A DNA stretch of 64,000 nucleotides, taken from Vezdaea acicularis (taxonomy: Eukaryota). The notes beneath the pieces were generated by a model. The model worked only from the letters and a program-made list of their open reading frames with translations, searched no databases and was not told the DNA's origin. A program made the position numbers and the translations under genes. The DNA lies in the NCBI GenBank assembly GCA_026025075.1, contig JAPEUI010000016.1, positions 1-64,000 on the forward strand, in the 5' to 3' direction. Shown here piece by piece: positions 1 to 39,954 of the stretch; position 1 is the first letter of the stretch; the number at the start of each line of letters is the position of its first letter.

Positions 1-3000
1 GAGAGATCTGCTCATCTCGGGTTGAGTTCACTTACAACCTGCAACGGTCAAAGAGGCCGGGGTCAGCCATCGATTCAACGGAGAGATCTGCTCAGCTCGG
101 GTCAAGCTCACTTACTTCCTACAACGGGCAAAAAGGCCGGGGTCAGCCATCGATTCAATGGAGAGATCTGCTCAGCTCGGGTCGAGTTCACTTACAACCT
201 GCAACGGTCAAAGAGGCCGGGGTCAGCCATCGATTCAACGAGAGATCTGCTCAGCTTGGGTCGAGTTTACTTACAAACTGCAACGGTCAAAGAGGCCGGG
301 GTCAGCCATCGATTCAATGGAGAGATCTGCTCATCTCGGGTTGAGTTCACTTACAACCTGCAACGGTCAAAGAGGCCGGGGTCAGCCATCGATTCAACGG
401 AGAGATCTGCTCAGCTCGGGTCAAGCTCACTTACTTCCTACAACGGTCAAAGAAGCCGGGGTTAGCCATCGATTCAACAGAGAGATCTGCTCAGCTCGGG
501 TCGAATTCACTTACAACCTGCAACGGTCAAAGAGGCCGGGTTAGCCATCGATTCAATGGAGAGATCTGCTCAGCTCGGGTCGAGTTCACTTACTCTCTGC
601 AACGGTCAAAGAGGCCGGCGTCAGCCATCGACTCAACGGAGAGATCTGCTCAGCTCGGGTCGAGTTCACTTACTCTCTGCAACGGTCAAAGAGGCCAGCG
701 TCAGCCATCGATTCAGTAGAGAGATCTGCTCAGCTCGGTTTGAGTTCACTTACTTCCTACAACGGTCAAAGAAGCCGGGGTTAGCCATCAATTCAACAGA
801 GAGATCTGCTCAGCTCGGGTCGAGTTCACTTACAACCTGCAACGGTCAAAGAAGCCGACGTCAGCCATCGATTCAACAGAGAGATCCGCTCAGCTCGGGT
901 CGAGTTTACTTACTTCCTACAACAGGCAAAAAGGCCGGCGTCAGCCATCGATTTAACAGAGAGATCTACTCAGAGAGATCTGCTCAGCTCGGGTCGATTT
1001 CACTTACTCTCTGCAACGGTCAAAGAAGCTAGCGTTAGCTAACGATTCAACAGAGAGATCTGCTTAGCTCGGGTCAAGTTCACTTACTCTCTGCAGTGGT
1101 CAAAAAGGCCGGAGTCAGCCATCGATTCAACGCAGAGATCTGCTCAGCTCGGGTCGGGTTCACTTACGTCCTGCAACAGTCAAAGAGGTCGGCGTCAGCC
1201 ATCGATTCAACAGAGAGATCTGCTCAGCTCGAGTCGAGTTTACTTACAGGCTGCAACGGTCGAAGAGGCCGGGGTCAGCCATCAATTCAACGGAGAGATC
1301 AGCTCGGGTCGAGTTCACTTACAAGCTACAACGGTCAAAGAGGCCGGGGTCAGCCATCGACTCAACAGAGAGATCTGCTCTGCTCGGGTCGAGTCCACTT
1401 ACATCCTGCAACGGTCAAAGAGGCCGGCGTCAGTCATCGATTCAATAGAGAGATCTGCTCAGAGAGATCTGCTCAGCTCGGGTCGAGTTCACTTACATCC
1501 TGCAACGGTCAAAGAGGCCGGGGTCAGCCATCAGTTCAACAAAGAGATCTGCTCATCTCGGGTCGAGTTCACTTACAAGCTGCAATAGCCAAAGATGCCG
1601 GCGTCAGCCATCGATTCAACACAGAGATCTGCTCAGCTCGGGCTGAGTTCACTTACAATCTGCAACGGTCAAACAGGCCGGCGTTAGCTATTAATTCAAC
1701 AGAGAGATCTGCTCATCTCGAGTTGAGTTCACTTACAAACTACAAAAGTCAAAGAGGCCGGCATCAGCCACCAATTCAACAGAAAGATCTGCTCAGCTCG
1801 GGTCAAGTTCACTTACAAGCTACAATAGCCAAAGATGCCGGCGTCAGCCATCGATTCAACGCAGAGATCTGCTCAGCTCGGGCTGAGTTCACTTACAATC
1901 TGCAACGGTCAAAGAGGCCGGCGTCAGCCATCGACTCAACAGAGAGATCTGCTCAGAGAGATCTGCTCATCTCGGGTCGAGTTCACTTACAACCTACAAT
2001 AGTCAAAGAGGCCGGGGTCAGCCATCGATTCAATGGAGAGATCTGCTCATCTCGGGTCGAGTTCACTTACTTTCTGCAACGGTCAAAGAGGTCTGCGTCA
2101 GCCATCGATTCCACGCAGAGATCTGCTCAGCTCGGGTCGTGTTCACTTACTGGCTGCAACGGTCAAACAGGCCGGCGTTAGCTATTAATTTAACAGAGAG
2201 ATCTGCTCATCTCGAGTTGAGTTCACTTACAAACTACAAAAGTCAAAGAAGCCAGCGTTAGCTAACGATTCAACAGAGATATCTGCTCAGCTCGGGCCGA
2301 GTTCACTTACATCCTACAACGGGTAAAAAGGCCGGGGTCAGCCATCGATTCAACGGAGAGATTTGCTCAGCTCGGGTCAAGTTCACTTACCAGCTACAAT
2401 AGTCAAAGAGGCCGGGGTCAGCCATCGATTCAACAGAGAGATCTGCTCAGCTCGGGTCGAGTTCACTTACCAGCTACAATAGTCAAAGAGGCCGGGGTCA
2501 GCCATTGATTCAACAGAGAGATCTGCTCAGCTCGGGTCGAGTTCACTTACCAGCTACAATAGTCAAAGAGGCCGGGGTCAGCCATCAATTCAATGGAGAG
2601 ATCCGCTCAGCTCGGGTCGAATTCACTTACCAGCTACAATAGTCAAAGAGGCCGGGGTCAGCCATCGATTCAACAGAGAGATCTGATCATCTTGGATCAA
2701 GTTCACTTACTTTCTGCAACGGTCAAAGAGGCCGGGGTCAGCCATCGATTCAACAGAGAGATCTGCTCAGCTCGGATCGAGTTCACTTACATTCTGCAAC
2801 GGTCAAAGAGGCTGGCGTTAGCAATCGATTCAACAGAGAGATCTGCTCAGCTCGGGTCGAGTTCACTTACACCCTGGAAAGGTCAAAGAGGCCGGGGTCA
2901 GCCATCGATTCAACAGAGAGGTCTACTTAGCTCGGGTCGAGTTTACTTGCATCCTGCAACGGTCAAAGAGGCTAGCGTCAGCTATTAATCAAACAGAGAG

Positions 3001-4143
3001 ATCTGCTTAGCTCGGGTCGAGTTTACTTACATACTGCAACGGTCAAAGAGGTCGGCGTCAGCCATCGATTCAACAGAGAGATCTACTCAGCCAGGGTTGA
3101 GTTTACTGACAAGCTGCAATGGTCAAAGAGGCCAGCGTCAGCCATCGATTCAACGCAGAGGTCTGCTCAGCTCGGGTCGAGTTCACTTACAAACTGCAAT
3201 AGTCAAAGAGGCCGGGGTCAGCCATCGATTCAATGGAGAGATCTACTCAGCTTGGGTCGAGTTCACTTACTCTCTGCAACGGTAAAGGCTAGCGTCAGCT
3301 ATCGATTCAACAGAGAGATCCGCTCAGCCAAGGTTAAGTTCACTTACTCCCTGCAACGGTCAAAGAGGCCGGCGTCAGCCATCGATTCAACGGAGAGATC
3401 TGCTCAGCTAGGTTCGAGTTCACTTACAGGCTGCAACAGTCAAACAGGCCGGTGTTAGCTATTAATTCAACAGAGATCTGCTCATCTCGGGTCAAGTTCA
3501 CTTACAAGCTACAATAGTCAAAGAGGCCGGGGTCAGCCATCGATTCAACAGAGAGATCTGCTCAGCTCGGGTCGAGTTCACTTACTCTCTGCAACGGTAA
3601 AGGCTAGCGTCAGCTATCGATTCAACAGAGAGATCCGCTCAGCCAAGGTTAAGTTCACTTACTCCCTGCAACGGTCAAAGAGGTCGGCGTCAGCCATCGA
3701 TTCAACAGAGAGATCCGCTCAGCTCGGGTCGAGTTCACTTACTTCCTGCAACGGTCAAAGAGGCTAGCGTTAGCTATCGATTCAACGGAGAGATCTGCTC
3801 AGCTCGGGTCGAGTTCACTTACTTCCTGCAACAGTCAAAGAGGTCGGCGTTAGCTATCGATTCAACAGAGAAATCTGCTTAGCTTGAGTTGAGTCCACTT
3901 ACTTCCTACAATAGTCAAAGAGGCCGGCGTCAGCCATCGATTCAACAGAGAGATCTGTGCAGCCAGGTTCAAGTTTCACTTACATACTACAACAGTCAAA
4001 GAGGCCGGCGTCAGCCATCGATTCAACAAAGAGATCTGCGCAGCCAAGTTCATGCTCACTTACATACTGCAACGGTCAAAGAGGCCGGGGTCAGCCATCG
4101 ATTCAACGAAGAGATCTGCTCAGCTCGGGCCAGTTCCACTCAC
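1..4143 (-). repeat. Tandem array of ~80-bp units, each a ~77-nt spliceosomal intron plus a 3-nt microexon (51 microexons visible)
   Basis: Minus-strand consensus GTAAGTGAACTCGACCCGAGCTGAGCAGATCTCTCNGTTGAATCGATGGCTGACCCCGGCCTCTTTGACCGTTGCAG|NNN. The only hypervariable position is the triplet between YAG and the next GT. Plus-strand triplets start at 36, 116, 196, 275, ... 3903, 3984, 4064. Confidence 0.93.
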
Positions 4144-7100
4144 GATGTGCCAATACAAGTAGTTCACTTTGGCGCCCTCCGCTAGCAGTAGCTTGATGAC
4201 CGCCTCGGACCCGTTGTCAATCGCCGCAGCTAACGGTGGGCCATCACCGCAATCTATCATTTCGATATCGGCTCCACTCTCCAGTAGCAGTAACATCACC
4301 GCTTCGTGCCCGTTCCCGGCTGCAATATGCAGTGCCGTCCAATCACCTTCAGCTTTCGCATCGACGTCTGCATCGTGCTCTAGCAGTTGCCGCACCACTG
4401 CTTCATGCCCTTTTTCAGCCGCCAAGTGCAGCGCCGTCTTCTTCTCACCATCCCTCCAGTTAACATTGGCTCCGGCATCAAGCATCAATTTAACTAGTGC
4501 CTCCTCGCCCATTTCAGAGGCCAAATTAAGGGCTGAAGATCTCTCGAAATCGAACGAGAGTTCCGTAAAAAGTCCTTCACCTTTAAGCCAGTCGTTCAAG
4601 GCAGATGACAAAACCTTATCAGACGGATCTTCCTTGTGGCCCAGTGCCACTCTGATAGATAAGGTTAAAGCAGTTCCATGGAGTTCGGCAAGGAGTACAG
4701 TCAGCTGATCCTTATCACAGCATGATGTTATCGCATGGTGCCACCAATTATTGCATGCATACAGAAGAAGAGGGTATGGCTTCAAGCCAGATTCTTCAGA
4801 TGCTTTCGTGTCATAGTAATGAATGTAAGCAAGACAACTTCTAAGGATAAACCATTGGCCGTCAGACTCACGAAGTCGAAACTTCGAATCGACGCTATCG
4901 CACATTAGATACTGCTTTACGGAGAAATGGGCAAAGGTTATGGCTCTATCTTGGTCAGCAGTGCTGATGGCCTCATCCTCTAAGTGAGATTGATCGTCTA
5001 TGCCAGATACTGTGACGAGTCCGGATAAGATGTCTCGAATGTCCCGCGGATCTTGAAACCTATCTTTAGGATCGAATGATACGGAACTGTCTTTAGCATC
5101 CTGTGATGGGTCGCTTGTGTCGAAAATAGCAGCTTCAGCAGCTTCGCTGAGTTTAAGGGGTCTATTTGAAAAAGCCAACCATCTAAGAACGGCGTGTGCT
5201 TCATCTTTGTAGTCAATTCTCTCAATTCGTGACAACATCCGACTGTATGTCTCGTACAAGTCCCTCGGTAGCTGATTTAGGGCCTTCTCGACATCCCGCT
5301 CTCTCTTTTTCCGCCTAAGTGTGCCAAGCTGGCACCCGACCCACCGGAACACACCATCTGCCTTTTCTGTAAGGGTTTCAATCACTTTCTTCTGCAGTCC
5401 AGGGGACCATTTCTGAAAGTCTTTAGGCACGCAGTTTTGAAGGTGTCTTCTGATGTCGTCGTTGACTCGCGACTTCTGGATTGGAACTTTGCATATCTTG
5501 CTCGGACTTTTGCTGAGTGCACTCTCAATATCCTCCTCTAGTCTGCTTGTAATCAAAATGTGCGTATTGCTTCCTGCCCTGCAAGAAAGCTCCGCTAAGA
5601 ATTTAACAACCTCTTTTCGATCCTCCTGTAACGGGCACTCATCCAGAGCGTCGACGACGATATAAGTCTCTTCGGATTCTGTCAGGACGCCTAGGAATGT
5701 TTCATTCAGGTCTTCGATCTTCGGGTCGCGTGCCGGCTGATATTTATTATATAAATCTCGAAAAGCTCTTGGAAGATGGTAGCGGCCAGGTTCCTGTGAA
5801 TCTTCACGAACGAGACTACGAACTAATTGAATCAGGAGAGAATACGTAAGACTTCGAACATCTTGTCGTTCATTTCTTCGAAAGGAGAAGTAGAAGAAGG
5901 CCAGAACTCCCAATTTTTGCCGCTCGATCTCGTCGTTAATAGTCGAGCTCAAAACTGTCTTGCCGCACCCAGCTGCGCAACGAGGAATTTAGCGAAGGAT
6001 GGGGCTGATGAGAGATAAAACATACCTTTGCCACAAAGCCACAAGAATGACCGAGGTTGCTTCTTCCACACTTCAAACTCTTCTCTAAGAAACCAGGTGC
6101 CTGTCGACTCGGTAGTACGGTTCTTTCGAGCCTCATTATGATATTCCAATGGATCAACATATGCCAGCCATTTGAGGTGGTTATCTTTGGATGTTGCGTC
6201 GAGTGGTGGCACTGCTCAAGAAAACACGAAATAAGAATCGTTATGTTTATATCTGAAATGAGAACTTCTACGTACAGTTATTAGGAGCACGAGCGGCAAC
6301 AAAGGCGTCGATGGTCTGTTTTATTTGAGGAACTCCTAAGTAGTATTCTGTCGCTGCCTCAATCTTATCGATCTTATGTTCATCCAAGCCAACCCCTCCT
6401 AAGCCTTGCTGGACATTGTATCGGAAGTAGCGGCCGCCGACGCCTCGATCTTTATGATTTTTGAAGAATCTCTTCTCGGTTTCCTCAGTTTCCGTCGAGA
6501 TAGCTTTGAGTGTCTCGACCACCTCCTTCAGGTTATCTCCAAAATCTTTCAAGTCGGGAACTCCCGTCCCGATGCTCACAAGACTCTGGATTCTAGGTCT
6601 AGCATCTGGCCAGATAGACTCTGCTTCTTCGAGCACTACTTCCACGGGATTATTGAAGCCCGTCGCTCCATCAACAAATTTTTGCCTGCCAATCTCGATC
6701 GGATCAAAGAACATAGCGGCTGCAGAGGTGGCACGAGCTGCTTGCCAGATAGTACACTCCGAGCTAGCCAAAGTATCGATCGCATCATCAGTGCTGTAGG
6801 TGCGGAGCCGTACAGGTGTGTTTAATGTTTTGGTGAAGGCACACACAAATCTGTAAGGAGAAATATTCAGTTTCGAATAGGAACGGAAAATTATGTCATA
6901 TTAATAGATATGCTGAACCTACACTTTGCAAGGTGCATTGGAGTTCCTCAACTTCGCCTCGGCATCGCCTTCCTGGGACTTGACAATATTTCTAATCTCA
7001 GAGGCGAGAGAGTCTGAAGAGTACGTTCCTTCAACCTTCAATATATCTTTTGCCTTCCCAAAGAAGTTTCCTTTTACCCTCTTGGGCTGGAATGCCGCCG

Positions 7101-7499
7101 ATGACAGCTCAATGTATTTGTTGATGCAAGTATCGACGTCCATTTGGAGCCGACCCAACATGATAGCGATAAGCCTGAAATTGGAAGGGTAAGCCATTTA
7201 TTTTTATATTTATCATTTTTTTCCTTGGTATATCAACGACAAGATGGGAAGCTCACCCTCCAGTGCTTGTCCCGCCGATTAAATCGAAATACTCGCAGGG
7301 CTTTGGGGGATTTTGCGGTCTTACTCTCTTCATCAGGTGTTTGAGAATGATAAGAGAAGAAAGCCCACGTATACCGCCTCCATCTGTAGTGAACAGATTA
7401 GCGAGAGTTACCAAATCAATACTGATTGCTCGGCATACCTAACGAGAGAAGTTTCAGTGAAGAAGGAGTAGCAGTCGGAGCAGGATTTGGGGACGCCAT
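1..7499 (-). CDS. Fungal NLR-like STAND protein: patatin-like phospholipase - NACHT - ankyrin repeats, continuing through a microexon array (3' end outside window)
   Basis: Exons reconstructed by hand: 7499-7439, 7383-7257, 7174-6923, 6850-6276, 6211-6026, 5972-4144, all joined by GT-AG introns in frame. Patatin motifs: LSLDGGGIRG, FDLIGGTSTGG, FVDGA. NACHT Walker A GKAGCGKT is formed across the 6026/5972 junction; Walker B is YIVVDALDEC. Four ankyrin repeats follow (SALNLAS, TALHLAAEKGH, TALHIAAGNGH, PPLAAAIDNGS). A GTGAGT donor at 4143 follows ...VNYLYWHI. Confidence 0.93.
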
Positions 7500-17793: not shown

Positions 17794-18536
17794 CGACGAG
17801 TGGGCTCATTCTAGGTATAGCAGATAGCTCACCCGGGTGTCCAAGTCTCCAATGATTAATACAGCTTCATTCGTTGACCTTGAAGACTCCGTAATGACGA
17901 GCTTATGAAGTTTCGATACTCCAATCTTAAGGCACCGCACCGTCCAGTACCAGGAGGTTACAAGGTCAATGAAAAAGAAAAAAAATACATAAACCACCGA
18001 GGAGTTAGACCTCACGGGCGAACTAATTCAAGTAGTAGAGAGCAACATGCATGTGACTCAACCGCCAATCAACCTTTATTTACATTGTTGCGCCGTTCCA
18101 GCATCCAATAATATAGCTAGAAATGTCTACGCGGAACATTGCTATGCATCGCTCTGCTATGGCCAATACTGCTTCATCCCACGAGTAGCTGTGTATGAGC
18201 TGGCACGTGATCAGGTTTTGGACAGCAGGCATTGAATACTCGTACAGAAGAAATGAAGGGCAACTGAAGCCGGTTCAACGCAGGCAATTCAGGCTCCCAC
18301 CTGCTGCGCGCCCTGCACCGCCCCATAGATCCCTTGGTGCTCCCTTGGTGCTCTCTCGGTGCTCCCCCCTGCTCCCTCAGTGCTCCCTTTTGCTTCCTTG
18401 CTGCTCCCTCTAAAGCTGCCCTGCTCCCTTTCCCGAATCAAAACGGCAATCGCTAATTCTAAGTTCGGGGTGTATATAATATATATATATATGCTAGAAT
18501 ATAATATGAGATATAATCTATTAAAATATATTATTC

Positions 18537-22489: not shown

Positions 22490-22750
22490 ACAACTGTTTA
22501 AACGACGACTGTCATGATGACGACAACTGTAATAGTAACTGACAACTTTCTTCGACTAGAATTGTCTAGATGACAAGAACTGTCGAAATAGCGTTAACTG
22601 TCTGGACGAGAACTGTCGGGCGAGGAGAACTGTCGGGCGAGGAGAACTGTCGGGCAAAGAGATATGTCTGGGCAAGATGATCTGTCTGGGCGAGGGGATC
22701 TGTCGGGCAGAGGAGAAATTGTCTAGGTGAGGAGAACTGTCTGAACGAGA
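22490..22750 (+). repeat. Degenerate ~17-bp tandem repeats (GAGAACTGTCGGGCGAG-like), likely transposon subterminal repeats
   Basis: About a dozen copies with a (A/T)CTGTC core, e.g. GAGAACTGTCGGGCGAG in tandem at ~22608-22655. Confidence 0.65.
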
Positions 22751-24421: not shown

Positions 24422-27400
24422 ATGTTCAGCTTTACTACATTAGTTCAAAAAGCTCAATCCTTCATTGACCCTACGCTGTCCTCATCTCAGGACCGAAAGC
24501 CCTCAAAAGCAACTCTATTCCGCCACCAATTTCATTTACCTGATTCGCAAACGCCCCTACAAGAAATCACGGCTGATCTCACGCTCTCAACTCCATCATC
24601 CCATGCTCTAAGCTCATCGCAAGGTGAAAAGGGTGATCGCAATAATCCGTACAGCGGAAAGCTCCATTTGAGCGAGAAGTTTCTCTGCTTCTCCACTCAG
24701 TCAACTAGCTTCCATCAAACCGCGAGCTTGAGTGCTTCGACCACGTACACTGGGCAGACCAATGGTGCCGGTCCTGGGGGGAATGGATTCACATTACCAT
24801 TGTGTGCTATCAGGCGTGTCGAGAGGCTTCATAGCCAGAGCTATATGTTCGCTCTTGCTATAACTACATCGAACGGTTCGAGCTCAGCAGGAGATGGTCA
24901 ATTATCTGCCATGCAACAGAAGCTGACTGTCCAGCTTGTTGGCAGCAGGCAGTCTTGTGAACGATTTTGTGATGGGTTGAAGAAAGGATTAAGGGATGGA
25001 GTGAAGGAAGTTGGAAAGCTCAAAAAGGTCGTTGCGGATTGCTATTCTGAGTACCTGCTTTCCGGTGATCCAAAGAAGGGCAAAGATGGTAAAACGAGGG
25101 ACCCTCCCGATGCAGGCCTTGGGATGGTTTTTAAATATCCTGGAGATCCACGGAAACTACGTGACCGAAGCAAGATGAGGTTGTGGGGAGAGTATTTACG
25201 TGGTAAGGTCACAACCTGCACACTAATTGTGGTAACCTCACTGAGACTCAAGCCTCTACCTAGACAATGGACGAAATGTGACACTTGTACGACAACCAAC
25301 TTTTCACAAGCTCATACGCGTCGGACTTCCAAATCGACTTCGAGGTGAAATATGGGAGGTTACATCCGGATCACTTTATCTCCGATTACAAAGCCCAACG
25401 CAGTACACCGACACGCTTTCCAAATTTAGTGGACAAGAATCTCTCGCCATTGACGAAATTGAGAAAGACCTGAACCGAAGTCTTCCAGAGTATCCCGGGT
25501 TCCAGAGTGAAGAAGGGATTGGTCGATTACGCCGAGTGCTAGTTGCTTACAGTTGGATCAATGAGGAAGTAGGATATTGCCAGGCCATGAACATAGTCGT
25601 GGCGGCTTTGCTGATGTAAGCATATCCATGTTCATTGATCTGTTCCTGGGAGCTAAGATATCTCAGCTATACTTCCGAATCCCAAGCTTTCTTCCTCCTT
25701 TCTGTCCTTTGCGAACGCCTATTACCAGGCTACTATTCGACGACGATGTATGGGACTTTATTAGATCAAAGAGTTTTCGAGTCTTTGGTCGAAAAGACGA
25801 TGCCTATATTATGGGATCATCTGGTAAAGTCAGACGTCCAGCTTTCAGTGGTGTCTCTTCCATGGTTTCTTTCGCTCTACATCAACTCTATGCCTCTAGT
25901 CTTTGCTTTCCGCGTCCTAGACGTCTTTTTCTTAGAAGGGCCGAAAGTCCTTTTCCAAGTCGGGTTAGCAATTCTCCGTATAAATGGCGAAGAGCTGCTG
26001 GATGCCACAGATGATGGTGCTTTCATATCCATCTTGAAGTCTTATTTCTTGCGACTTGATGAGTCCGCTCACCCAAAGTCCGAGAACGAGAAGTTGCGAG
26101 CAGTCACCAGGTTTCAAGAGCTGATGGTCGTGGCTTTCAAAGAATTTTCTGGCATCACTCAAAGCACGGTTTCGGAATTGCGGGCTAGGCACAAAGGAAC
26201 AGTTCTCGATGGCATTGAGAACTTTGCGAAACGAACATCAATACGAAATCTCACACCTGATAGCAAGAAGCTCGGTAATGATGACCTAGGTTTGATTTAT
26301 GACAGATTCTACACCGTCCTATATGATCATCAGCAACGCGTACAAATGCAAGACGACGAAAACAAGAGGAGAGCGAGGGCGAGTAAGAATATAGCTATTG
26401 AGTTAGTAAAAGGAATTCCAGCAGACGAGAGGGTAGAGAAGGGTAGAGTTGGCCTAGGACCAAGTCCCACGCTGATGAACTACGATGGCTTTCGCGAATT
26501 TCTAGCTGGTATCACGAAGTGGGGCGTGACTGATTCCCTGAGTTCGTCAAACAGCGTGAATAGTAAAGATGGCAATTCTTTCTTTGGCGGAAGCACGAAA
26601 GACAGAAGCGACCAAGCATGGCCTTGGGGAATCTCAAAGGCAGAGCCTGCAGATCACGAATTCATGAGAAGGTTATTTCGCGTTTGGGATACTGATCACC
26701 AAGACGGCCTAAGCCTCCAGAACGTGGTCAGCGGTCTTGCCAAAGTTAAAGGAACGCGAGATATCATGACAAGCATTAGCTACTTTTTTGAGCTTTACGA
26801 CGATGATGGAGACGGCAGAGTCGATCGTGAAGGAATACTTCGCATCTCGGAGGCACTTCTTTTCCTTTCTAGACGCGGATTGGAAGGGTCACTAATGTCC
26901 TCGACCTTGACGAGTGCAATCGATGAGCCGATTCTAGGGCCAGACAGCGATGACTCCAAAGTCAGGATAGACGAAAAGTTTCTTGGGAGCGTCAGCGCAT
27001 TCATCCGACGATGTTTTGAATACGCAGACCCCGATCACCCGCATAACCAGGATCATACGGCCAGAACCGATTTCAGCGCGAATGAAGGTGCATTCAGTAT
27101 CGGTGAAGATGATGAGGACTTACTTGAATCTAGTCCTATAGGTACGGCTCAAGTAGAATCATCGTCAGTAAAGTCCAAGAAAGCTATGGATCTCTCCAGT
27201 GCACCTATCATATTAAATGATCACGGCGTTACAGCAACCTCACGTAAGATCTCAAAGGCGGAAGCAGAATCTGCGAATCTCGCCCTTGACCCTGCAAACC
27301 CGTTGTATATTACCCTTCCTACTTTCCGAATGGTCGTCCTAGCTGACGAGCTATTGGAACAATTCTTTGAGTCTTTCTTTCCATCATCATTTCGTATTAG

Positions 27401-27908
27401 CGGTGACTCAATCGCTGGAGGCAGCACTGTCGGATCTCCGTCTAGCTTGACTACCTTTTCGAGTCTTTCATTCAGTAGATCAAGTTCGGCTGCAGCACTT
27501 CCTGCAAACGTATCTCAACTAGGTGTTCCTCCTGGGAAAGGTTTGCGGGGTGTTCTGGACAATATTGTTACTGATGGAATGCGCGTGGCCGCAGAGGTCA
27601 AACGACGAATGGACGAAGCGCAGCGTGAGATGGAAAAGAACGCGTACCCCAGAGACGATGATGAAGAAGATGAGGAGGATGGTGGTAAAGTTTCTGGCGG
27701 CTACGGAGCCGATGAAGATCGGAGGAGCGTGCGCGAAGGCGATCGAGACCTTCTCATGGGTGCCGATGCGGAAATAGGCGGTGCACGAGGAAAGTTTGCT
27801 GATTCGGACCGAGACTACGATAATACGACCTTGCATACAAATTCAAATGAGGGTCGGAAACGGAGCGTAAGCTCTACTACGCAAAAGTTCGTGGAGTTTG
27901 AGCAGTAA
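24422..27908 (+). CDS. GYP2: Rab GTPase-activating protein (GRAM-like, TBC and EF-hand domains; Gyp2/Mdr1-like)
   Basis: TBC motifs [16 protein letters not shown] and LPWFLSL; EF-hand [10 protein letters not shown]; introns near 25203-25263 and 25616-25667. Confidence 0.88.
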
Positions 27909-32848: not shown

Positions 32849-35800
32849 CTACGCCCTGGCCTCATCCTGGCGCGCCTCATTCAGGACGAGCTCGACGACG
32901 ATCTGGGTCTTCTCGAGCTCGGGGTGCTGCATGACGACCTTGACGGTGCGGCCCTGACTGCCATCATCGAGGAGCCTCACATCCTTACCGCTGACGACCT
33001 GCTTCAGGCGGCCATCGCTCGCATTGCGGATTTCGACAAACTCGCTATCGACAAGGAGGACGTAGGCGTCGTGCATGGCGGCCTGCTTGACCTTGCCGAG
33101 GAAGTGCATGACGACGCCACGGCTGACTTCGCCGTGCTTGCTGACGTAGACCGCGCACTCTTCGTAGCAGAGCAGGAACTCGTCTTTGAGGCGGAACATG
33201 CCCAGGGGTTTCTGGGAGGCCACTTGTGAGGCGATGTTGGCGACCGCGGGGCCTTTGAAGTCAGGGAGCGTCATCGGGACTTTCTTGTCGAGGGTGAGGA
33301 CCTCGAAGCCCCGCGCTGTGCCGACGCTGAGGGAGCTGTGGAAGAGATTGATGTTGTAGCATTCGGCGGGGATGTAGAACTCGTCGTATTCGCGGAAGAA
33401 CTCGGTGGTGCCTTTCCGGAAGAAGCGGGATTTCTTTTCTGTGGACTTTTGGAAAACGGGCTCAAGGACCTGAGTCGAGCAAATCAGTATATGCCGTACG
33501 AATGATATTCCGGTCTCACCAGGGGCCATACCTTAAAGACAGAGGAGGTTGTTTCTCGTTTTTTGTAGAACACGAGCGTCCGATCCTTCATCTTTCCAGT
33601 CGAGAAGAACCCCACGTCTCGGTTTCCCGAAAGCTTCTGCGGAGCCCGGCGGGCAGAGTCGTTCGGTGGAGGAACGCCACTGACAGGACAAACGACGTCC
33701 AAGTGGTAGGCAATGAGAACTCCATTTGTGATGACGAGGAAAAGGCTGAACTCCTCCAAGACGGCGATTTGCGTCACATTCTTGATGGTAATAGCCTATG
33801 ATGCGATTGTCAGTGAGGTTTGCACGAGACCGAACGTCACGCATACCTTTAACCAGCCGCGCGGATTCAACGTCTCCGAGACATATATGCCGTAGTCCGT
33901 GCCAACAGCAACCATGTGCTTCCCATAAGGCTGATCGAAGGTAGTAGCGCAATTGACGGTAGCTCGGCATACAGGTAAGGGCCGAGGATCCGCTGCCTCG
34001 AATGTGTTCTCGACTGCCCTAATAGCTCGATCGAGGGGAGTCCCGCGTATAGGGGCCACTCTTGGTCCTCCGGAATTGCTGTCATTCGCAAAGGCGGTAT
34101 CTGCAAGTATCCGCAACTTAAAGGGCTCTGCGTTCTGGGCGAAAAGTGAAGCAGCATGCTTAGTCTTTGCGAGCCGGATTTTATCACACCAGTCGTCTCG
34201 AATTGCCTTGCTGGGAGCGTATAGCGTGTAGCTCTCCGTTTTGCCGAGATGCTTGATCCTGAAGGGCCAAATGACACTTTCGTCGCTAGCCCCCTCAATC
34301 ACAGTTGTCGTGACCATTGTCTTAGCGGACGCTGTAGAATTTGTTGAGGCTATCGAGATGTCGGTACTTGCATGCTGTAGCGGTCCGGGCCGCTCATTTG
34401 TTTGGATGCTTGAAAGAGCCCTCCCAAATCCACCGGCAGAGCTCTGGCCCGCGACTGTCTTTCCACCGCGTGCGTCGGTGGCAGACTGAGTTCTACCTCC
34501 TACAGCAGCCATAGCACCCAGTCTATTCGACATAGATTTGGGCTCCGGGGGGTCCTCTTCGCCCTCTAGGACAAGAATATCCATAGAGATAGGCTGAAAC
34601 AAAATGATCAGTGACTTAGCTACCAAAACGTGACATGTTCTACTCACCTGTTTCGACACATCCAATATCTCGTGTTTGATGCCGCCAGCAGCATCTCTCT
34701 GCTGCACAGGCTTCGCAATGACCATATAGTGATCGAAGAGAATTGCATGCACTTCCACCCAAGAGAACAAGCGATTAGATCCTTTCCGCAGGAGGTTGCC
34801 ACGGAATATGATCTCCCGACCCAAGTGCGTGAGGTTTAACTTCACCTCCTCCAAGCCTCGACGGAATTTTAGCTTCTGCTCCAGCTCGATAAGCTCAATC
34901 TTCCTCTGTTCATCAGCAACTCGGGTGTCGCACTCCAAAGTGACGACCTTGATCTCATCGATCGCAGTCTGAAGATTTGTCTTCTCCTCTGTTTCTTGCA
35001 GCATATTCTTGTGCACAACGGACAAGAGCAAGGTGTAATGTTGAAGCCTGGTTATGGGGGACTTCAAGAAGGAATCCCATCCTAACCTTCTCGAGCGTTC
35101 ATTCTCTCGTGCCTGGTCCAAGAATTGGTTGAAGAGTACGTTGCGGCTGGCTTCTTGTCTCATCATGAAAGAGGCCCTTGGAAAGCCGGCGGCAAACTCG
35201 GAGTATGCCGTCTTTGCTTTCCTTATCCATTCCCGGAAAATGTCAGAGAACCCTACAAGCCAGGGGCCTTGCTCCTGCTGTCGATATTTCAACTGCGCAA
35301 GGAGGTAGTCCTCATTGACCTTCTTTATAATGTCAATTTTGCCAAACACTTCCCGCAAGAACTTCTCTACTTTGTTGGGGGGAAGTATTGAGTTGGCCCT
35401 TAGTGCATCTCGATAGAGCACTCTAAGTACATTTAGCCCGTCGATGAATTGATCCTCTCCCTGGACGATCTCATGAAGGTTGTTTTGGCGCTCTATCTCT
35501 TTCTTCGCAACACCTTCAATGTCCTCCTTCTTCAGTCGGTAGAAAGTAGCCCAATCCTCCTTCTTGCGTTGTGGTTCAAGTAACTGAGTCTGGAGGTTGA
35601 TCTTCTTGAGAGTTCTAGAGCAGTGGTGAGCATAGCAGCGGCCAGCAAAATCTTCATCGTGTAGACGCGGCGCATAGCATCCCCGCCCCGTAAGCTGCCA
35701 AAGTACACCAGATATAGTTGCCGATCCAAACTTCACCCATTCCTCCTCATGAACAAGAACGCCGGCTTGGAACATTTCTCTAACGATCTTCTCCGCCAAA

Positions 35801-38208
35801 GTTTCCGCATCCGCAACATTCATTGTTGGCACCTTGTGAGTAAAGAGTGCTACGATTCCATCGACGAGCGTTTTCTCTTTGAGATCCGTCTCGCCATCGC
35901 TCATCTCGTTCAGCCATGAGGCGATAGCACTCAGTGCCCACGGTTCTGCGCATCTTTTAAACTCTGCTGTCGACAATTTTGCGGGATTGAATCGTCTACG
36001 TCTGCCCTGAGGTATCGATGGTAAGTCAATAGTTGGCTCGGTTACAGCACTTCCGGGAATTGTCTCCATTCCAATTCCACGGGCACTTGTTCTTGAATGC
36101 CTGTTCGACTTGGCATCAGCATCGGTTTTCGCACGTTTTGGGTCTGTTGGTAGTGGCGTGCTACTATGATGATTGAGTGACGTTGAACGGGGTACCGCCA
36201 TCACACTAGAATCTCGAGGCGGAAAGAGACTTCCCGCTTGACTTTCATGCTCAAGTGAGTACTCTGAACCGTACACTGACCCCGTCTGCAATGGCGGTGG
36301 GGGAAGAGGCCGGTCAGAGGGAGAAACACCCGATCCGTAGTAGTACTCGTAATCGTCCCTAGTCGGACTTTGACTATTAGACCTCTCGCGGTAGAGTTCA
36401 ACCTGCTCGTCTTCTTCAGCATCGAAGCTTGTATGACGCACATGCCCCGGCTCCGCCAGGCCGCCGGTGCCATCTATATCCACCTGAGCGTAGGGGAGGG
36501 GAGTTGCGTAAGCCGGGAACGGATGGCTTGCATTCGCAGGCGGAATTGTCCAGTCATGTAGTCCGTTTCGGGCAGCCGGTTCAACCCTATTCGGAACTAT
36601 AGACGTTGGTGGAGGGTAGAAAGTATCGGTCCCATAAGGCATCGGAGGGAATTCTCCATCGCTACCTGATGATTCTCTCGGATCAGGCCTGTTGCCCTGA
36701 TGGGGGGGGACTGGTGAAGGCTGATACCCTGCAGCAAAAAAGTCATGATCCTCGTGGGTAAGAGCCCAGGCCCCTGCAGCTGCCTCAGGATCATTCTCAT
36801 AGTCGGATTCATGTTCCCGCACTTCTCCGTTTTCACCATGCACATATGCACCATTCATTTGAGCAATGCTGTAAGAGTCTGTCCGGAAGGGGAGGGAGGT
36901 CGAACGGCCACCATTGGTAGACGCAGGATGCGAATGAGCAAGGTGATGGGCAGGAAGGGAATTCTGCGAACCACTTCCAGCATTGTTGATGGCCGCTTCA
37001 ACGCCGGCGTAAAGCTCCTCCTGTGCATCCAATTCCGCCGATCCGCGATGCTCACCTCTCATACTGTCACTAGAGTCATCTGTATCAGATTCTGGTGGCG
37101 GCCCTGGTAGAGGCCGCCCCTCTGGATGAGTCGTGGTGTTGGCACGCTGGGGCTGATGCTGGGACTGGGGCTGATGCTGATGTGGCGGGTTCGGCGATCC
37201 TTGTTCGATCGACGAGGTTTGGACCCCATGGACCGTTTGAGTCCGAGCACTGTAGTCATATTCGGGAGGGCCGCTGTGGCTGTCTTGAAGGGGCGAGGTA
37301 TCGGATTGAGGTGTTGGGTACTGGGGTAATGACAATGGGGAGTAAGCATTAGAGCCGCGATGTTCATATGCGCTCTGAGGATCAATTTCTGGAGGAACTG
37401 GGGGAGGAGGTGGTGCTGGGGGCGTATATACAGAAGCGTAGTTATTAGAGGATGTAGGTATATGCGGCGATGCCGATTGCGCACTAGGTGGTTGGCCGTA
37501 ACGATATGGTTGGTAAGGTTGATACTGAGTGGGGGGTGTTGGTAATGGACCTTGAGGGGGTGAGTGTGCAGAGAAATAACCGCCTTGAGGAGCGGACGCG
37601 GCAAGCGGGGCGGGTGGAGATGCAGAGGCGTAACTACTTTGGCCGGGTGAGGGATAGGACGCTGTTGATGCATACAGGCTTGGGGAGTACGACCCGCGAT
37701 GACCGTCCATAGCTGTCATTGGGTTATAAGTCTGCTGGACAGATGTACGATGCCCAATATTAGTGTAGGCCTGAGGATTGTAAGTTGGCTGTACTGGTGG
37801 CGGTGGAGCCGTGGGGAACTGTTGAGGGTTGTAGATCGGATGGGTAGCGGGGGGTGATTGGGGTTGCGGAGGTTGTGCGAGCTGCTGGGAATATCCCGTA
37901 GTCACATATTGGGGCCTGGGTGGTAACTGGGCAGTTGTCTCTGCCCGTCTCATCTGCATTCCGTTGCTCTGCTGCCCATGCGCGTTCACACTACCATATG
38001 GTGGATAATTCCCCACTGCTCCAGCAGGACGAGGTCCGCTTGCGTTACCTGCAAACGCAGCCTCGTCATCTTTGTCATAACTTGGGACCCTATTGAGCGG
38101 TGGAGGGAGGTTTCCGTATTGGTCTGACGCCGCTGGGGCCGCTGGATATCGTTGCGCAGCGTTGCTGTACTGGCTTTGATATCGTGGATCGTTTGGGTTG
38201 TAAGACAT
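32849..38208 (-). CDS. Rho guanine nucleotide exchange factor (DH-PH-CNH; Rgf3/Tus1-like)
   Basis: Pro/Gln-rich N-terminus; DH motifs EIERQNNLHE and SPITRLQHY; PH region ILFDHYMV; CNH domain in the last exons; three short introns. Confidence 0.9.
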
Positions 38209-39954
38209 GGTTGGAAAGCAGCGTCACCTCCTGGCCCGCGTTCGTGACGATTTTTGGGCGCTCTTTCCTCCCAGGAAGAGAGAAAGGGTCGGAGACGGAG
38301 GAAAGCAGCAGGGCAAAAAGCTCTTGCTGTCGGTCACTCTCGCATCTGGACTGTTTCGCGCCACCATGGATCAGGCGAAAGGAGAGGGCAAGTGCAGCAT
38401 CGGCGAGAGAGCTCGAAGGCTGCGCTTTGGAGGGTCGAAACGACGTCGCGGCGCGCGGGGACTATTGGAGTGAGCTCTGCAGTCCCTTCAGGATCGGAGG
38501 CGAGTCATCGAGGACGAGCTGGAGTTATCGGTCTGCTGGGGATCGTCAACGTCGGTCGGTGATGTCGATGATGGTCAGACGAGCCTCTGGCCCGGAGGAG
38601 TAGCGGCAAAGGGCCAAATCGTTAAATTTCCGCGGTGGCTTCAACAACACCACACTGCGTAAACTGGGCAAGCTCCGGGATCTTGGCGCGCAGAGCGCTC
38701 TCTATGGGCAGCGCACGACGGTATCGGGCGAGCACGCAAAGCACATGCAAAATAGGGCCATGTCATCAAGCATTCTGCGAGGGAACCGTCGGGCTCGACG
38801 GATCTCGGGACGCGCAAGGCCTTCACTCCCCTTGCGACCCTGGCTTCAAGGCTTACCCGGCAAAGCAGCGGCCATGAGTGCCTGGCGCGGTCCAGGGGTT
38901 GGACGACCACACAATTAATTGCACGTAGGTGGTTACCTCTAGCAATGATCCACTGATCGTTTGCGAACAAAGCACATCGCGAAGTCCCGAGCAGTACAAG
39001 ATTGATTTGCGGTTCGCAAAAGCAGAGCAAAACAGGCATGCACCGCGAGATATGTCGTTCGGCCACCGTAGGCGCGCTGTCGGGTCTGGAGCCCGTCGAT
39101 GGCGCTCGGCGGGAGCAGGGCTGGGCCCAAGCCCGATTTGGGAGCCACCGCTTTCGTGGAGCAGACGCCGCAGCTTTGCCCTCCTTTGCCTTCCTTTCTT
39201 CTTCTTCGTCTTCTCCTGCTCTCACATCGACGCATGAACTACAGACCGGGGACCGTTGAACGATGACCACGCGTCGACCCTACTACTGCCAGACCTGCCT
39301 CGAAGAAAGCAGCGGCGGAAGCTCGACCTCGCCATCGATGGCATCTTCCTCGGCGTACAGTCCGATCAGTGTGCGATCAGATGGGAGCCCAGGAGGGCAG
39401 CCAATGAGAGCCGGATCCAAGGAATCAGATTCTTCGCCACACGGCCGTAGCCATGTCAATAGAGCGTCCACAGTATAGAAGACGTGCGCGGTCGTCTCGG
39501 CCTTACGCAAACTACTGGGATGTAGGCAAGGCCAAGCGTGGGCGGAATCTGCCGACTTCGCTCTCAAGGAGACGCTGCTCACCCAGTCCCCCGGTCCATT
39601 CGATCAACCCCGAAACCCGTAGCCCTCGAGAAGATCTTCATACAACTTGCCCGGGTACTTAGTTTTGTTCTCATTGGCAGTCAAAAAGGCCCTGTATCAA
39701 TGATTCCATACAAATTTTCAAAGCATCCGGGGTTCAGAGCTGCGTTTAGCTGTATTCGGAGCTTTCGGTCTTTTCGGCTGCAGTGACGTCTAGTGCCCCG
39801 CGTTCGAGCTCCTGTAGGATGATATATATCGGTGTAACGTGCCCCACTCCTCGCCCCCACTCCATACCACAACCTATGAACATTGAACGGTCCCACTGAA
39901 AGCAATATACTTGAATTGATCTTCAACCCCATTTCACCGCAAACAGTCTTCACA

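What the first reader, a model, noticed from the sequence alone, without database searches (positions are those of the whole stretch)
1..4144. Array of at least 51 single-codon (3-nt) microexons between near-identical introns inside a fungal NLR gene
Seen in sequence: on the minus strand every 80-bp unit is a full intron (GTAAGT donor, GCTGAC/GCTAAC branch, pyrimidine tract, YAG) followed by exactly 3 nt. The first donor (GTGAGT, 4143) falls at phase 0 after ...VNYLYWHI of the patatin-NACHT-ANK ORF, so each exon is one whole codon. In transcript order they read YYEEEGRLPGRFLYDGNKLLLLDFPKVILFILDDLPDRREVERRVEVFVEV: 16 codons, 12 amino acids, no stop codon. The triplet is far more variable than the flanking repeat. 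Inference: any subset of exons can be skipped without frameshift, so one locus could make a very large set of receptor variants, a Dscam-like diversity generator at single-residue resolution. Known precedent, from memory and to be verified: codon-sized alternatively spliced microexons were reported in the NACHT-ankyrin family of Tuber melanosporum. A homogeneous array this long on a patatin-effector NLR may be a new or independent instance, and gene predictors would miss it.
Basis: partly seen in the sequence, partly recalled or inferred. Interest (0 to 1): 0.96.

Follow-up and report, generated by a model that had tools for sequence, protein, structure and literature searches.

The report
Codon-sized microexon array in lichen-fungus NLR
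An immune-receptor-like gene of the fungus Vezdaea acicularis runs into at least 51 tiny three-letter exons, each separated by a near-identical short intron; this rare layout was known only from the black truffle and could let one gene make many receptor variants.

Summary
On the minus strand, 4143..36 holds 51 units of one canonical fungal intron (77 nt in 41 of 51) plus exactly 3 nt. The array starts in phase 0 after the last ankyrin codon of a patatin-NACHT-ANK gene and runs off the window's left edge.

The three exon positions are by far the most variable columns of the repeat. The gene is identical to a public Vezdaea acicularis protein whose model ends by reading into intron 1, so the annotation misses the array.

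No RNA data could be obtained, so support for splicing is indirect. Eighteen of 21 relatives, including Geoglossum, Trichoglossum and Glutinoglossum, break at the same junction into a similar intron. Two close relatives carry 53 and 85 in-frame residues there instead.

The kind is known: the Tuber melanosporum 'nank' family (Iotti 2012, seen only through citing papers). This is a new lineage and architecture, not a new mechanism. Alternative splicing and combinatorial diversity remain untested.

The parts
36..4143 (-). Array of 51 complete units, each one spliceosomal intron (72-91 nt, mode 77) followed by one 3-nt exon. The first intron is 4143..4067, the first microexon 4066..4064, the last complete microexon 38..36.
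1..35 (-). 5' part of a 52nd intron of the same family, cut by the window edge. The array continues to the left of the window.
4138..4143 (-). First donor, GTGAGT, in phase 0 directly after the last ankyrin-exon codon (ATC, Ile).
   Evidence: Junction position shared by 21 of 21 aligned relatives.
4120..4143 (-). Read-through of intron 1 (VSGTGPS plus stop) that the public gene model uses as the C-terminus.
4144..5973 (-). Large exon encoding the NACHT NTPase, a winged-helix/linker region and ankyrin repeats.
5974..7499 (-). Five upstream exons (7499-7440, 7384-7256, 7173-6922, 6849-6277, about 6212-6027) encoding the patatin-like phospholipase N-terminal domain. Their ordinary introns are 53-82 nt and unlike the array introns.
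957..987 (-). 14-nt internal duplication that makes one of the three 91-nt introns. The same duplication lies at 1447-1476 and 1940-1969.

Best explanation
This is a genuine array of at least 51 codon-sized (3-nt) microexons in the patatin-NACHT-ANK NLR gene of Vezdaea acicularis. It is of the kind described for the Tuber melanosporum nank family.

Shown here:
- Each unit is a complete, ordinary-sized fungal intron (strong donor, CTRAC branch about 24 nt from a YAG acceptor) plus one codon.
- The array begins in phase 0 at a junction in the loop after an ankyrin repeat.
- The array grew by tandem duplication of intron-plus-codon cassettes. Higher-order periods of 160 and 240 nt match better than 80.
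- Nearly all the sequence diversity sits in the codon.

Inferred:
- The introns are recognised one by one by intron definition.
- Flanking spliceosomes cannot sit on both sides of a 3-nt exon at once, so the introns are removed sequentially. Each ligation places the next GTAAGT behind the growing exon, much as in recursive splicing but leaving one codon each time.
- The result is an insertion of about 50 or more residues, probably unstructured and hypervariable, between the penultimate and the last (capping) ankyrin repeat of the sensor domain.
- The patatin phospholipase is the presumed cell-death effector.
- Any donor can pair with any later acceptor without changing frame, so exon skipping could create many isoforms. 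That last step is taken from the Tuber reports only.
For: 1. Anatomy. 51 of 51 exons are exactly 3 nt while intron length varies from 72 to 91 nt. Splice signals are almost invariant. The gene's five ordinary introns are 53-82 nt, so 77 nt is a normal size here.

2. Variability is focused on the triplet. It holds the three highest-entropy columns of 80. For 16 unit pairs whose 70 flanking nt differ at 0.024 per site, the triplets differ at 0.354 per site. For 122 pairs at 0.061 per site, the triplets differ at 0.585 per site.

3. The codon repertoire is non-random. 0 of 51 triplets encode A, T, S, M, W, Q, H or C, which make up 31% of the adjoining exon. The third base is T 28, A 18, G 4, C 1, against an even spread in the exon.

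4. Relatives (21 aligned).
- 18 break at the same junction into read-through that resembles the window's own intron. These include public models from Trichoglossum, Geoglossum and Glutinoglossum and environmental ORFs. Their tails (VSDLHPDPSY, VSELNP.., WLTPASLAIA) compare with the window's VSELDPS* and WLTPASLTVA.
- One partial model stops at the junction.
- Two go on in frame. P0002 has 53 residues and then a read-through matching the array intron's 5' end. P0040 has 85 residues, then a weak ankyrin-like repeat (Pfam Ank E = 0.015, below cut-off) and a normal end.
- P0040 and P0002 are 74% identical over 251 residues up to the junction and unrelated after it.
- P0002 still reads through the upstream ordinary intron. 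I judged this by eye against the window ORF 5936..6277. So its source looks like genomic DNA in which the microexons are already joined, as expected after recombination with a spliced cDNA.

5. Related arrays are widespread. The antisense ORF of the array hits 36 cluster representatives (19 at E <= 1e-10) from environmental assemblies, again with variable residues at the triplet position.

6. Precedent. Citing papers describe the same architecture with alternative splicing in Tuber.
Against: - There is no transcript evidence for this gene or species.
- The downstream exon is outside the window and no genome is held. This copy could be truncated or dead.
- The absence of stops is not significant (P = 0.09-0.22).
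- Only 16 codons occur, and runs such as four CTG units in a row show that part of the 'diversity' is duplication history.
- Two donors are weak variants, GTCAGT and GCAAGT.
- P0002 and P0040 are known to me only as proteins. Their contigs could not be fetched, so the reading that each extra residue was once a microexon, and that the source is DNA, is inference.
- The Iotti 2012 paper itself is not held.
- A metagenome-assembled tandem array may be wrong in unit number and order.
Confidence: 0.78

Rival explanations
1. The array is real intron material but is normally removed wholesale or nearly so, with the donor at 4143 joined to a far-downstream acceptor. Few or no triplets would reach the protein, and the repeats would be a by-product of intron duplication.
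For: Every donor can pair with every later acceptor in frame, so complete skipping is mechanically possible. No RNA is available to exclude it.
Against: It does not explain why variability is concentrated about 10-15 fold in exactly the 3 nt between acceptor and donor. It does not explain why the triplets avoid eight amino acids and G/C at the third base. It does not explain why two close relatives carry 53 and 85 in-frame residues at this junction.
Confidence: 0.08
2. This particular copy is a decaying or truncated member of a functional kind. The array is no longer followed by a usable exon, or the gene is a pseudogene.
For: The array runs off the window and the end is unseen. Three donors deviate from GTAAGT. 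NLR families turn over rapidly, which I state from general knowledge, supported by the passages.
Against: The upstream 1010 codons are intact across six exons. All 51 acceptors are intact, and of the 51 donors 48 are GTAAGT and three are usable variants. No triplet is a stop.
Confidence: 0.07
3. The array is a non-coding minisatellite in the 3' UTR or intergenic DNA that happens to contain splice-like motifs, and the protein ends at VSGTGPS as annotated.
For: That is the public model. Tandem repeats are common, and the absence of stops is not significant.
Against: The same junction and intron family recur in 18 of 21 relatives from several genera. The hypervariability falls on the triplet only. 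Intron-less joined relatives exist. The protein would end in the loop after an ankyrin repeat without the capping repeat that P0040 has.
Confidence: 0.05
4. The plus strand of the array encodes a repetitive protein.
For: Plus-strand frames carry only 15-24 stops per roughly 1369 codons, against 107-128 on the minus strand. There are ORFs up to 380 aa, and similar ORFs are called in metagenome catalogues.
Against: The ORFs are broken into 32 pieces of at least 50 aa across all three frames. No Pfam stretch passes on its own. Ten of the 36 hits were looked up and all come from environmental assemblies, none with an informative name. The variable positions fall in a different frame in each unit, which fits a codon on the other strand.
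Confidence: 0.01

Closest known systems
Tuber melanosporum 'nank' (NACHT-ANK) family with tens of codon-sized, alternatively spliced microexons. Iotti et al. 2012, Fungal Biol 116:261. The paper is not held and is known here only from passages in PMC4986451, PMC3689799, PMC9815663, PMC10197012 and PMC13449251.
   Same: A NACHT NOD plus ankyrin sensor. Dozens of 3-nt exons between introns in the C-terminal recognition part. The proposed role is diversification of an NLR sensor.
   Different: The host is Vezdaea (Vezdaeales/Lichinomycetes), with relatives in Geoglossomycetes, not Pezizomycetes. The N-terminus here is a patatin domain; whether nank genes have one I could not check. No Tuber protein appears among the 89 + 90 named hits of the two searches. 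So close homology is not shown, and the intron sequences could not be compared. Alternative splicing is documented for Tuber (per the citing papers) and is untested here.
Fungal NLR repeats with high internal conservation (HIC): WD40, ANK or TPR repeats that are near-identical except for a few positively selected sites and are shuffled by unequal crossing-over (passages in PMC9815663 and PMC13449251).
   Same: Tandem, near-identical units with variation focused on very few positions in the sensor part of an NLR, and growth by unequal recombination. The unrelated metagenome NLR loci fetched here show such 99-bp ANK arrays.
   Different: Here the repeated unit is an intron plus one codon, not a protein repeat. 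The conserved part is removed from the mRNA and only the variable part is kept.
Recursive (ratchet-point) splicing of long Drosophila introns and Dscam1 alternative exon clusters (recalled, no call).
   Same: Step-wise removal of intron segments at juxtaposed acceptor-donor sites, and very many isoforms from one locus.
   Different: Recursive sites leave no exon nucleotides, whereas here 3 nt stay each time. Dscam1 uses mutually exclusive whole exons guided by RNA pairing, and no significant RNA structure was found here (z = -0.54 to +1.78).
Introner-like elements of fungi: near-identical introns multiplied within a genome (recalled, no call).
   Same: Many near-identical canonical introns of one sequence family.
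   Different: Introners are dispersed among unrelated genes, whereas these are tandem within one gene family. In the other 60 kb of this window the 35-nt intron motif has no match on either strand.

Membership tests
nank-type NLR with a codon-sized microexon array (Tuber melanosporum) | NACHT nucleotide-binding domain followed by ankyrin repeats | tested here: met
   Pfam: NPHP3_N 7.1e-27, NACHT 8.5e-07, Ank_2 2.7e-23 and Ank 4.5e-23 in window 4120..5988(-).
nank-type NLR with a codon-sized microexon array (Tuber melanosporum) | Tens of 3-nt exons flanked by canonical introns within the coding region | tested here: met
   51 of 51 units have a 3-nt exon between a YAG acceptor and a G(T/C)NAGT donor, starting in phase 0.
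nank-type NLR with a codon-sized microexon array (Tuber melanosporum) | Microexons are joined in mature mRNA | tested here: inconclusive
   No RNA run was listed. The support is indirect: relatives P0002 and P0040 carry 53 and 85 in-frame residues at the junction.
nank-type NLR with a codon-sized microexon array (Tuber melanosporum) | Extensive alternative inclusion of the microexons | not testable with these tools
   This needs cDNA or long-read RNA. The single run search found no RNA holder.
nank-type NLR with a codon-sized microexon array (Tuber melanosporum) | Sequence homology to the Tuber nank genes or their introns | not tested
   No Tuber sequence was available. None of the named hits is from Tuber, but those searches score only the candidates sharing most words.
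Patatin-type fungal NLR (patatin-like phospholipase effector domain + NOD + repeats) | N-terminal patatin-like phospholipase domain on the same gene as the NOD | tested here: met
   Patatin 4.5e-09 in 6268..6900(-). The public six-exon model joins it to the NACHT exon. The precomputed domains of P0001 list PF01734.
HIC-repeat NLR sensors | Near-identical protein-coding repeats with few hypervariable residues | tested here: not met
   The near-identical part is intronic. On the minus strand every frame is full of stops, 107-128 per roughly 1369 codons. It works in a similar way but is not a member.

The most novel reading that the evidence does not exclude
Codon-sized microexon cassettes are not a truffle oddity. 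They would be a conserved, dedicated intron family that builds hypervariable loops in ankyrin NLR sensors across distant Pezizomycotina: Vezdaeales, Geoglossales and many uncultured soil fungi. Individual spliced isoforms would be repeatedly written back into the genome by reverse transcription, giving intron-less paralogues with frozen 53- and 85-residue loops (P0002, P0040) whose sequences are unrelated. Splicing would then act not only as a somatic diversifier but also as a source of heritable new receptor alleles.
Probability: 0.3. Interest if true: 0.85.

Novelty: new member of a known kind. Interest (0 to 1): 0.72.

Why it matters
Fungal NLRs are candidate immune receptors whose ligands and ways of diversifying are largely unknown. 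The microexon mechanism has rested on one species and one paper. As late as 2026 it is grouped with 'lineage-specific strategies' (PMC13449251, passage).

Finding the same architecture in a different class has several consequences:
- The intron family is recognisable across genera and in environmental contigs, so the mechanism becomes a general and comparative problem.
- It gives concrete primers and loci for testing it.
- Public gene models of these fungi systematically truncate the receptors at the array. All 9 public models inspected from Vezdaea, Trichoglossum, Geoglossum and Glutinoglossum read into the intron.
- The intron-less relatives offer a natural record of which isoforms were once made.
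- For splicing biology, runs of 3-nt exons are an extreme test of intron definition.

Tried and rejected
- RNA evidence: the look-up of sequencing runs on 4100-7400 listed no RNA holder.
- Whole genome: none is held, so the left continuation of the array and the downstream exon could not be read.
- Fetching relatives' DNA: the one metagenome scan, with alignment A1, used generic NLR motifs. It returned 79 loci at only 23-33% identity. TRF on them found only coding repeats of 99-378 bp and no roughly 80-bp arrays.
- A degenerate intron motif scanned in genome contigs gave 11 single matches in bacterial contigs and no arrays (after two unanswered tries). The viral-contig scan was not repeated.
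- RNA structure as the reason for intron conservation: five introns gave z = -0.54 to +1.78 and a four-unit stretch gave z = +0.49, so no signal.
- Stop-codon depletion as evidence for coding: not significant.
- Plus-strand coding: rejected.
- Protein atlas on the P0040 linker: best score 0.84, uninformative.
- Earlier findings of this scan: nothing for this genome, this sequence or 'microexon ... NACHT'. The eight hits shown (of 27) for 'microexon' concern unrelated cases.
- Literature: Iotti 2012 is not held. Searches for 3-nt or codon-sized exon arrays found no fungal NLR case other than Tuber among held papers. Supplements were not consulted.


Full report
**What is there**

The minus strand of 1..4143 is a tandem array with an 80-nt period and 51.4 copies. 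Walking from the last ankyrin codon, which ends at 4144, a strict parser finds 51 consecutive units. Each unit is an intron (G(T/C)NAGT ... YAG) followed by exactly three bases and then the next donor. A 52nd intron is cut by the window edge at 35..1.

- Intron length is 77 nt in 41 of 51 units. The rest are 72-78 nt or, in three units with a 14-nt internal duplication, 91 nt.
- Donors are GTAAGT in 48, and GTGAGT, GTCAGT and GCAAGT once each.
- Acceptors are CAG in 34 and TAG in 17.
- A CTGAC or CTAAC branch motif lies 24 nt from the intron end in 47 of 51.
- A 35-nt intron consensus matches 42 times with at most 3 mismatches, only on this strand and only inside the array. None is expected by chance.

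The only correction is that 10 of 51 units are not exactly 80 nt.

**The gene and the organism**

Upstream lie a NACHT plus ankyrin exon (5973..4144) and patatin exons up to 7499. The translated exon is 100% identical to a public 1017-residue protein, KAI9862173.1, 'MAG: hypothetical protein M1824_001554 [Vezdaea acicularis]'. That model ends ...VNYLYWHIVSGTGPS, so it reads into intron 1 and stops.

Vezdaea belongs to Vezdaeales, placed in Lichinomycetes by PMC12238968 (passages; NCBI lineage). Tuber is in Pezizomycetes. The gene's five ordinary introns are 53-82 nt long, AT-rich and unlike each other and unlike the array introns. The rest of the window holds ordinary fungal genes: RabGAP-TBC, an Rgf3-like RhoGEF and Tudor-SN.

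**Is the triplet special?**

Yes. In an alignment of the 51 units, the three exon columns have entropies of 1.89, 1.74 and 1.40 bits. The highest intron column has 1.23 and most are below 0.8. The donor, branch and acceptor columns are invariant or nearly so.

| Unit pairs | Flanking 70 nt, differences per site | Triplet, differences per site |
|---|---|---|
| 16 pairs with at most 2 flank differences | 0.024 | 0.354 |
| 122 pairs with 3-5 flank differences | 0.061 | 0.585 |

Recently duplicated cassettes have therefore diverged 10-15 times faster in the codon than around it. This is the signature described for hypervariable sites of high-internal-conservation NLR repeats (passage in PMC9815663).

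The triplets are also not random.
- None of the 51 encodes A, T, S, M, W, Q, H or C, which together make up 31% of the adjoining exon.
- The third base is T or A in 46 of 51, against an even spread in the exon.
- This points to constraint from the adjacent donor, to founder effects, or to both.

The lack of stop codons is not significant by itself (P = 0.09-0.22), and I do not count it as evidence.

**Are the triplets spliced into mRNA?**

Direct evidence could not be had. No RNA run was listed and no genome is held. The indirect evidence comes from relatives. I aligned 21 family members.

- Eighteen break at the same junction into a read-through tail that looks like the window's own intron translated in phase 0. 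The tails are VSDLHPDPSY, VSELNP.., VSETGPS and VSEPGSS, against the window's VSELDPS*.
- Where models read further they show WLTPASLAIA or RRLTPASSAIA, matching the window's WLTPASLTVA from the intron's 3' half.
- These eighteen include all 9 public models inspected from Vezdaea, Trichoglossum hirsutum, Geoglossum simile, G. umbratile and Glutinoglossum americanum.
- One partial Elaphomyces model stops at the junction.
- Two close relatives from JGI/IMG assemblies continue in frame.

P0002 is 69% identical to the window protein. It has 53 extra residues (685-737) followed by 13 residues that match the array intron's 5' end at 11 of 13 positions, if the window consensus is read with a one-base shift. 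I made that comparison by eye.

P0040 has 85 extra residues (240-324), then a weak ankyrin-like repeat (Pfam Ank E = 0.015, below cut-off) and a natural C-terminus.

P0040 and P0002 are 74% identical over 251 residues up to the junction and unrelated beyond it. Both insertions lack alanine and are rich in Y, E/D, G, P, F, R and V, as is the window's peptide.

P0002 also reads through the ordinary intron upstream of the NACHT exon. By eye, its N-terminal stretch parallels the window ORF 5936..6277. Its longest contig is 30 kb. Its source is therefore most likely genomic DNA in which the first 53 array introns are gone. The simplest origin is recombination with a spliced cDNA, which requires that such mRNAs existed. 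This is inference, because I never saw the DNA.

**Where the insertion sits**

An AlphaFold2 model of P0040 built on alignment A2 gives these regions:
- Confident ankyrin repeats at residues 70-235 (10-residue block means 86-98).
- A low-confidence stretch at 239-321 (pLDDT below 50).
- A helical tail at 322-370 (10-residue block means 64-87).

The microexon-encoded segment is thus an insertion in the loop between the penultimate and a terminal ankyrin-like repeat. It is predicted neither as a domain nor with any confidence.

**How widespread**

The plus strand of the array is almost free of stops (15-24 per roughly 1369 codons, against 107-128 on the minus strand), so gene callers for prokaryotes call ORFs there. 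A 380-residue ORF of this kind (1039..2181 +) finds 36 cluster representatives among 1.84 billion proteins, 19 of them at E <= 1e-10.

The ten I looked up come from environmental assemblies (JGI/IMG, ENA and a soil catalogue). Most of them repeat the motifs that flank the triplet, with changing residues in between. So arrays of this intron family occur in many uncultured fungi.

In held papers I found no report of such arrays outside Tuber. A 2026 paper groups the Tuber mechanism with 'lineage-specific strategies' (PMC13449251, passage).

**Mechanism, with shown and inferred steps marked**

Shown:
- Canonical, normal-sized introns.
- Phase-0 codon exons.
- Cassette duplication. Periods of 160 and 240 nt match at 83% against 75% for 80, and there are near-identical distant units.
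- Diversification focused on the codon.

Inferred:
- Recognition by intron definition.
- Obligatory sequential removal, because a 3-nt exon cannot hold two spliceosomes at once.
- Possible pairing of any donor with any later acceptor, giving in-frame skipping.

No RNA secondary structure stands out (z = -0.54 to +1.78). The presumed output is a variable loop in the sensor of a receptor whose patatin domain would act as a membrane-damaging effector. That last point rests on general knowledge of patatin-type fungal NLRs and is recalled, not tested here.

**Rivals**

- Wholesale removal of the array (0.08).
- A dead or truncated copy (0.07).
- A non-coding minisatellite with the protein ending as annotated (0.05).
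- Plus-strand coding (0.01).

The first three fail to explain the triplet-focused variability together with the joined relatives. The last fails on broken frames and the lack of any family match.

**Verdict**

It is a new member of a known kind. It extends the kind to a new lineage and domain architecture, adds a cross-genus intron family, and adds unexpected intron-less relatives. The claim of Dscam-like combinatorial output is untested. Unit number and order in a metagenome-assembled repeat should be treated with caution.

Noticed in passing
window 1-4143, plus strand: All three plus-strand frames of the array are nearly free of stops: 15, 19 and 24 per roughly 1369 codons, against 107-128 on the minus strand. 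This gives ORFs up to 380 aa. Such antisense ORFs of related arrays sit in public metagenome protein catalogues as 'hypothetical proteins' (36 cluster representatives).
   Followed up: yes
P0002 (residues 685-737) and P0040 (residues 240-324), JGI/IMG proteins: Two close relatives carry 53 and 85 in-frame residues where the window has its intron array. The two insertions are unrelated to each other although the flanking ankyrin repeats are 74% identical. This suggests two separate intron-loss (cDNA write-back) events.
   Followed up: partly
P0094 (Glutinoglossum americanum), P0014 (Geoglossum simile), P0009/P0010/P0090/P0092/P0093 (Trichoglossum hirsutum), P0018 (G. umbratile): Public gene models of these homologues all end in, or wander through, intron read-through at the same junction. 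By eye, the P0094 model then continues in what looks like frame-shifted ankyrin coding. The receptors are systematically mis-annotated.
   Followed up: partly
P0019 (Elaphomyces granulatus, partial): A patatin-NACHT-ANK homologue (48% identity) from an ectomycorrhizal Eurotiomycete ends exactly at the junction (...EVNYHYRHK). It may hide an array too.
   Followed up: no
window 957-987, 1447-1476, 1940-1969: The same 14-nt duplication (a GAGCAGATCTCT-type motif) occurs inside three separate introns, making them 91 nt. Indels are tolerated in the introns while the exon stays 3 nt in all 51 units.
   Followed up: partly
loci L011-L078 (metagenome contigs): Unrelated environmental NLR genes (23-33% identity) carry long arrays of near-identical 99-bp ankyrin repeats, for example L049 with 27 copies at 82% matches. 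This is the classical high-internal-conservation way of diversifying NLR sensors.
   Followed up: no
window 18330-18409 and 22608-22741: Two short tandem repeats, of 11/21-nt and 17-nt periods (about 7.5 copies each), unrelated to the array.
   Followed up: no
window 25620-27908 (+), 33796-38223 (-), 42936-44534 (+): Ordinary housekeeping neighbours: a RabGAP-TBC protein, an Rgf3-like RhoGEF with PH domain, and a Tudor-staphylococcal-nuclease protein. Seven other ORFs of 254-608 aa had no Pfam match at 1e-5.
   Followed up: partly
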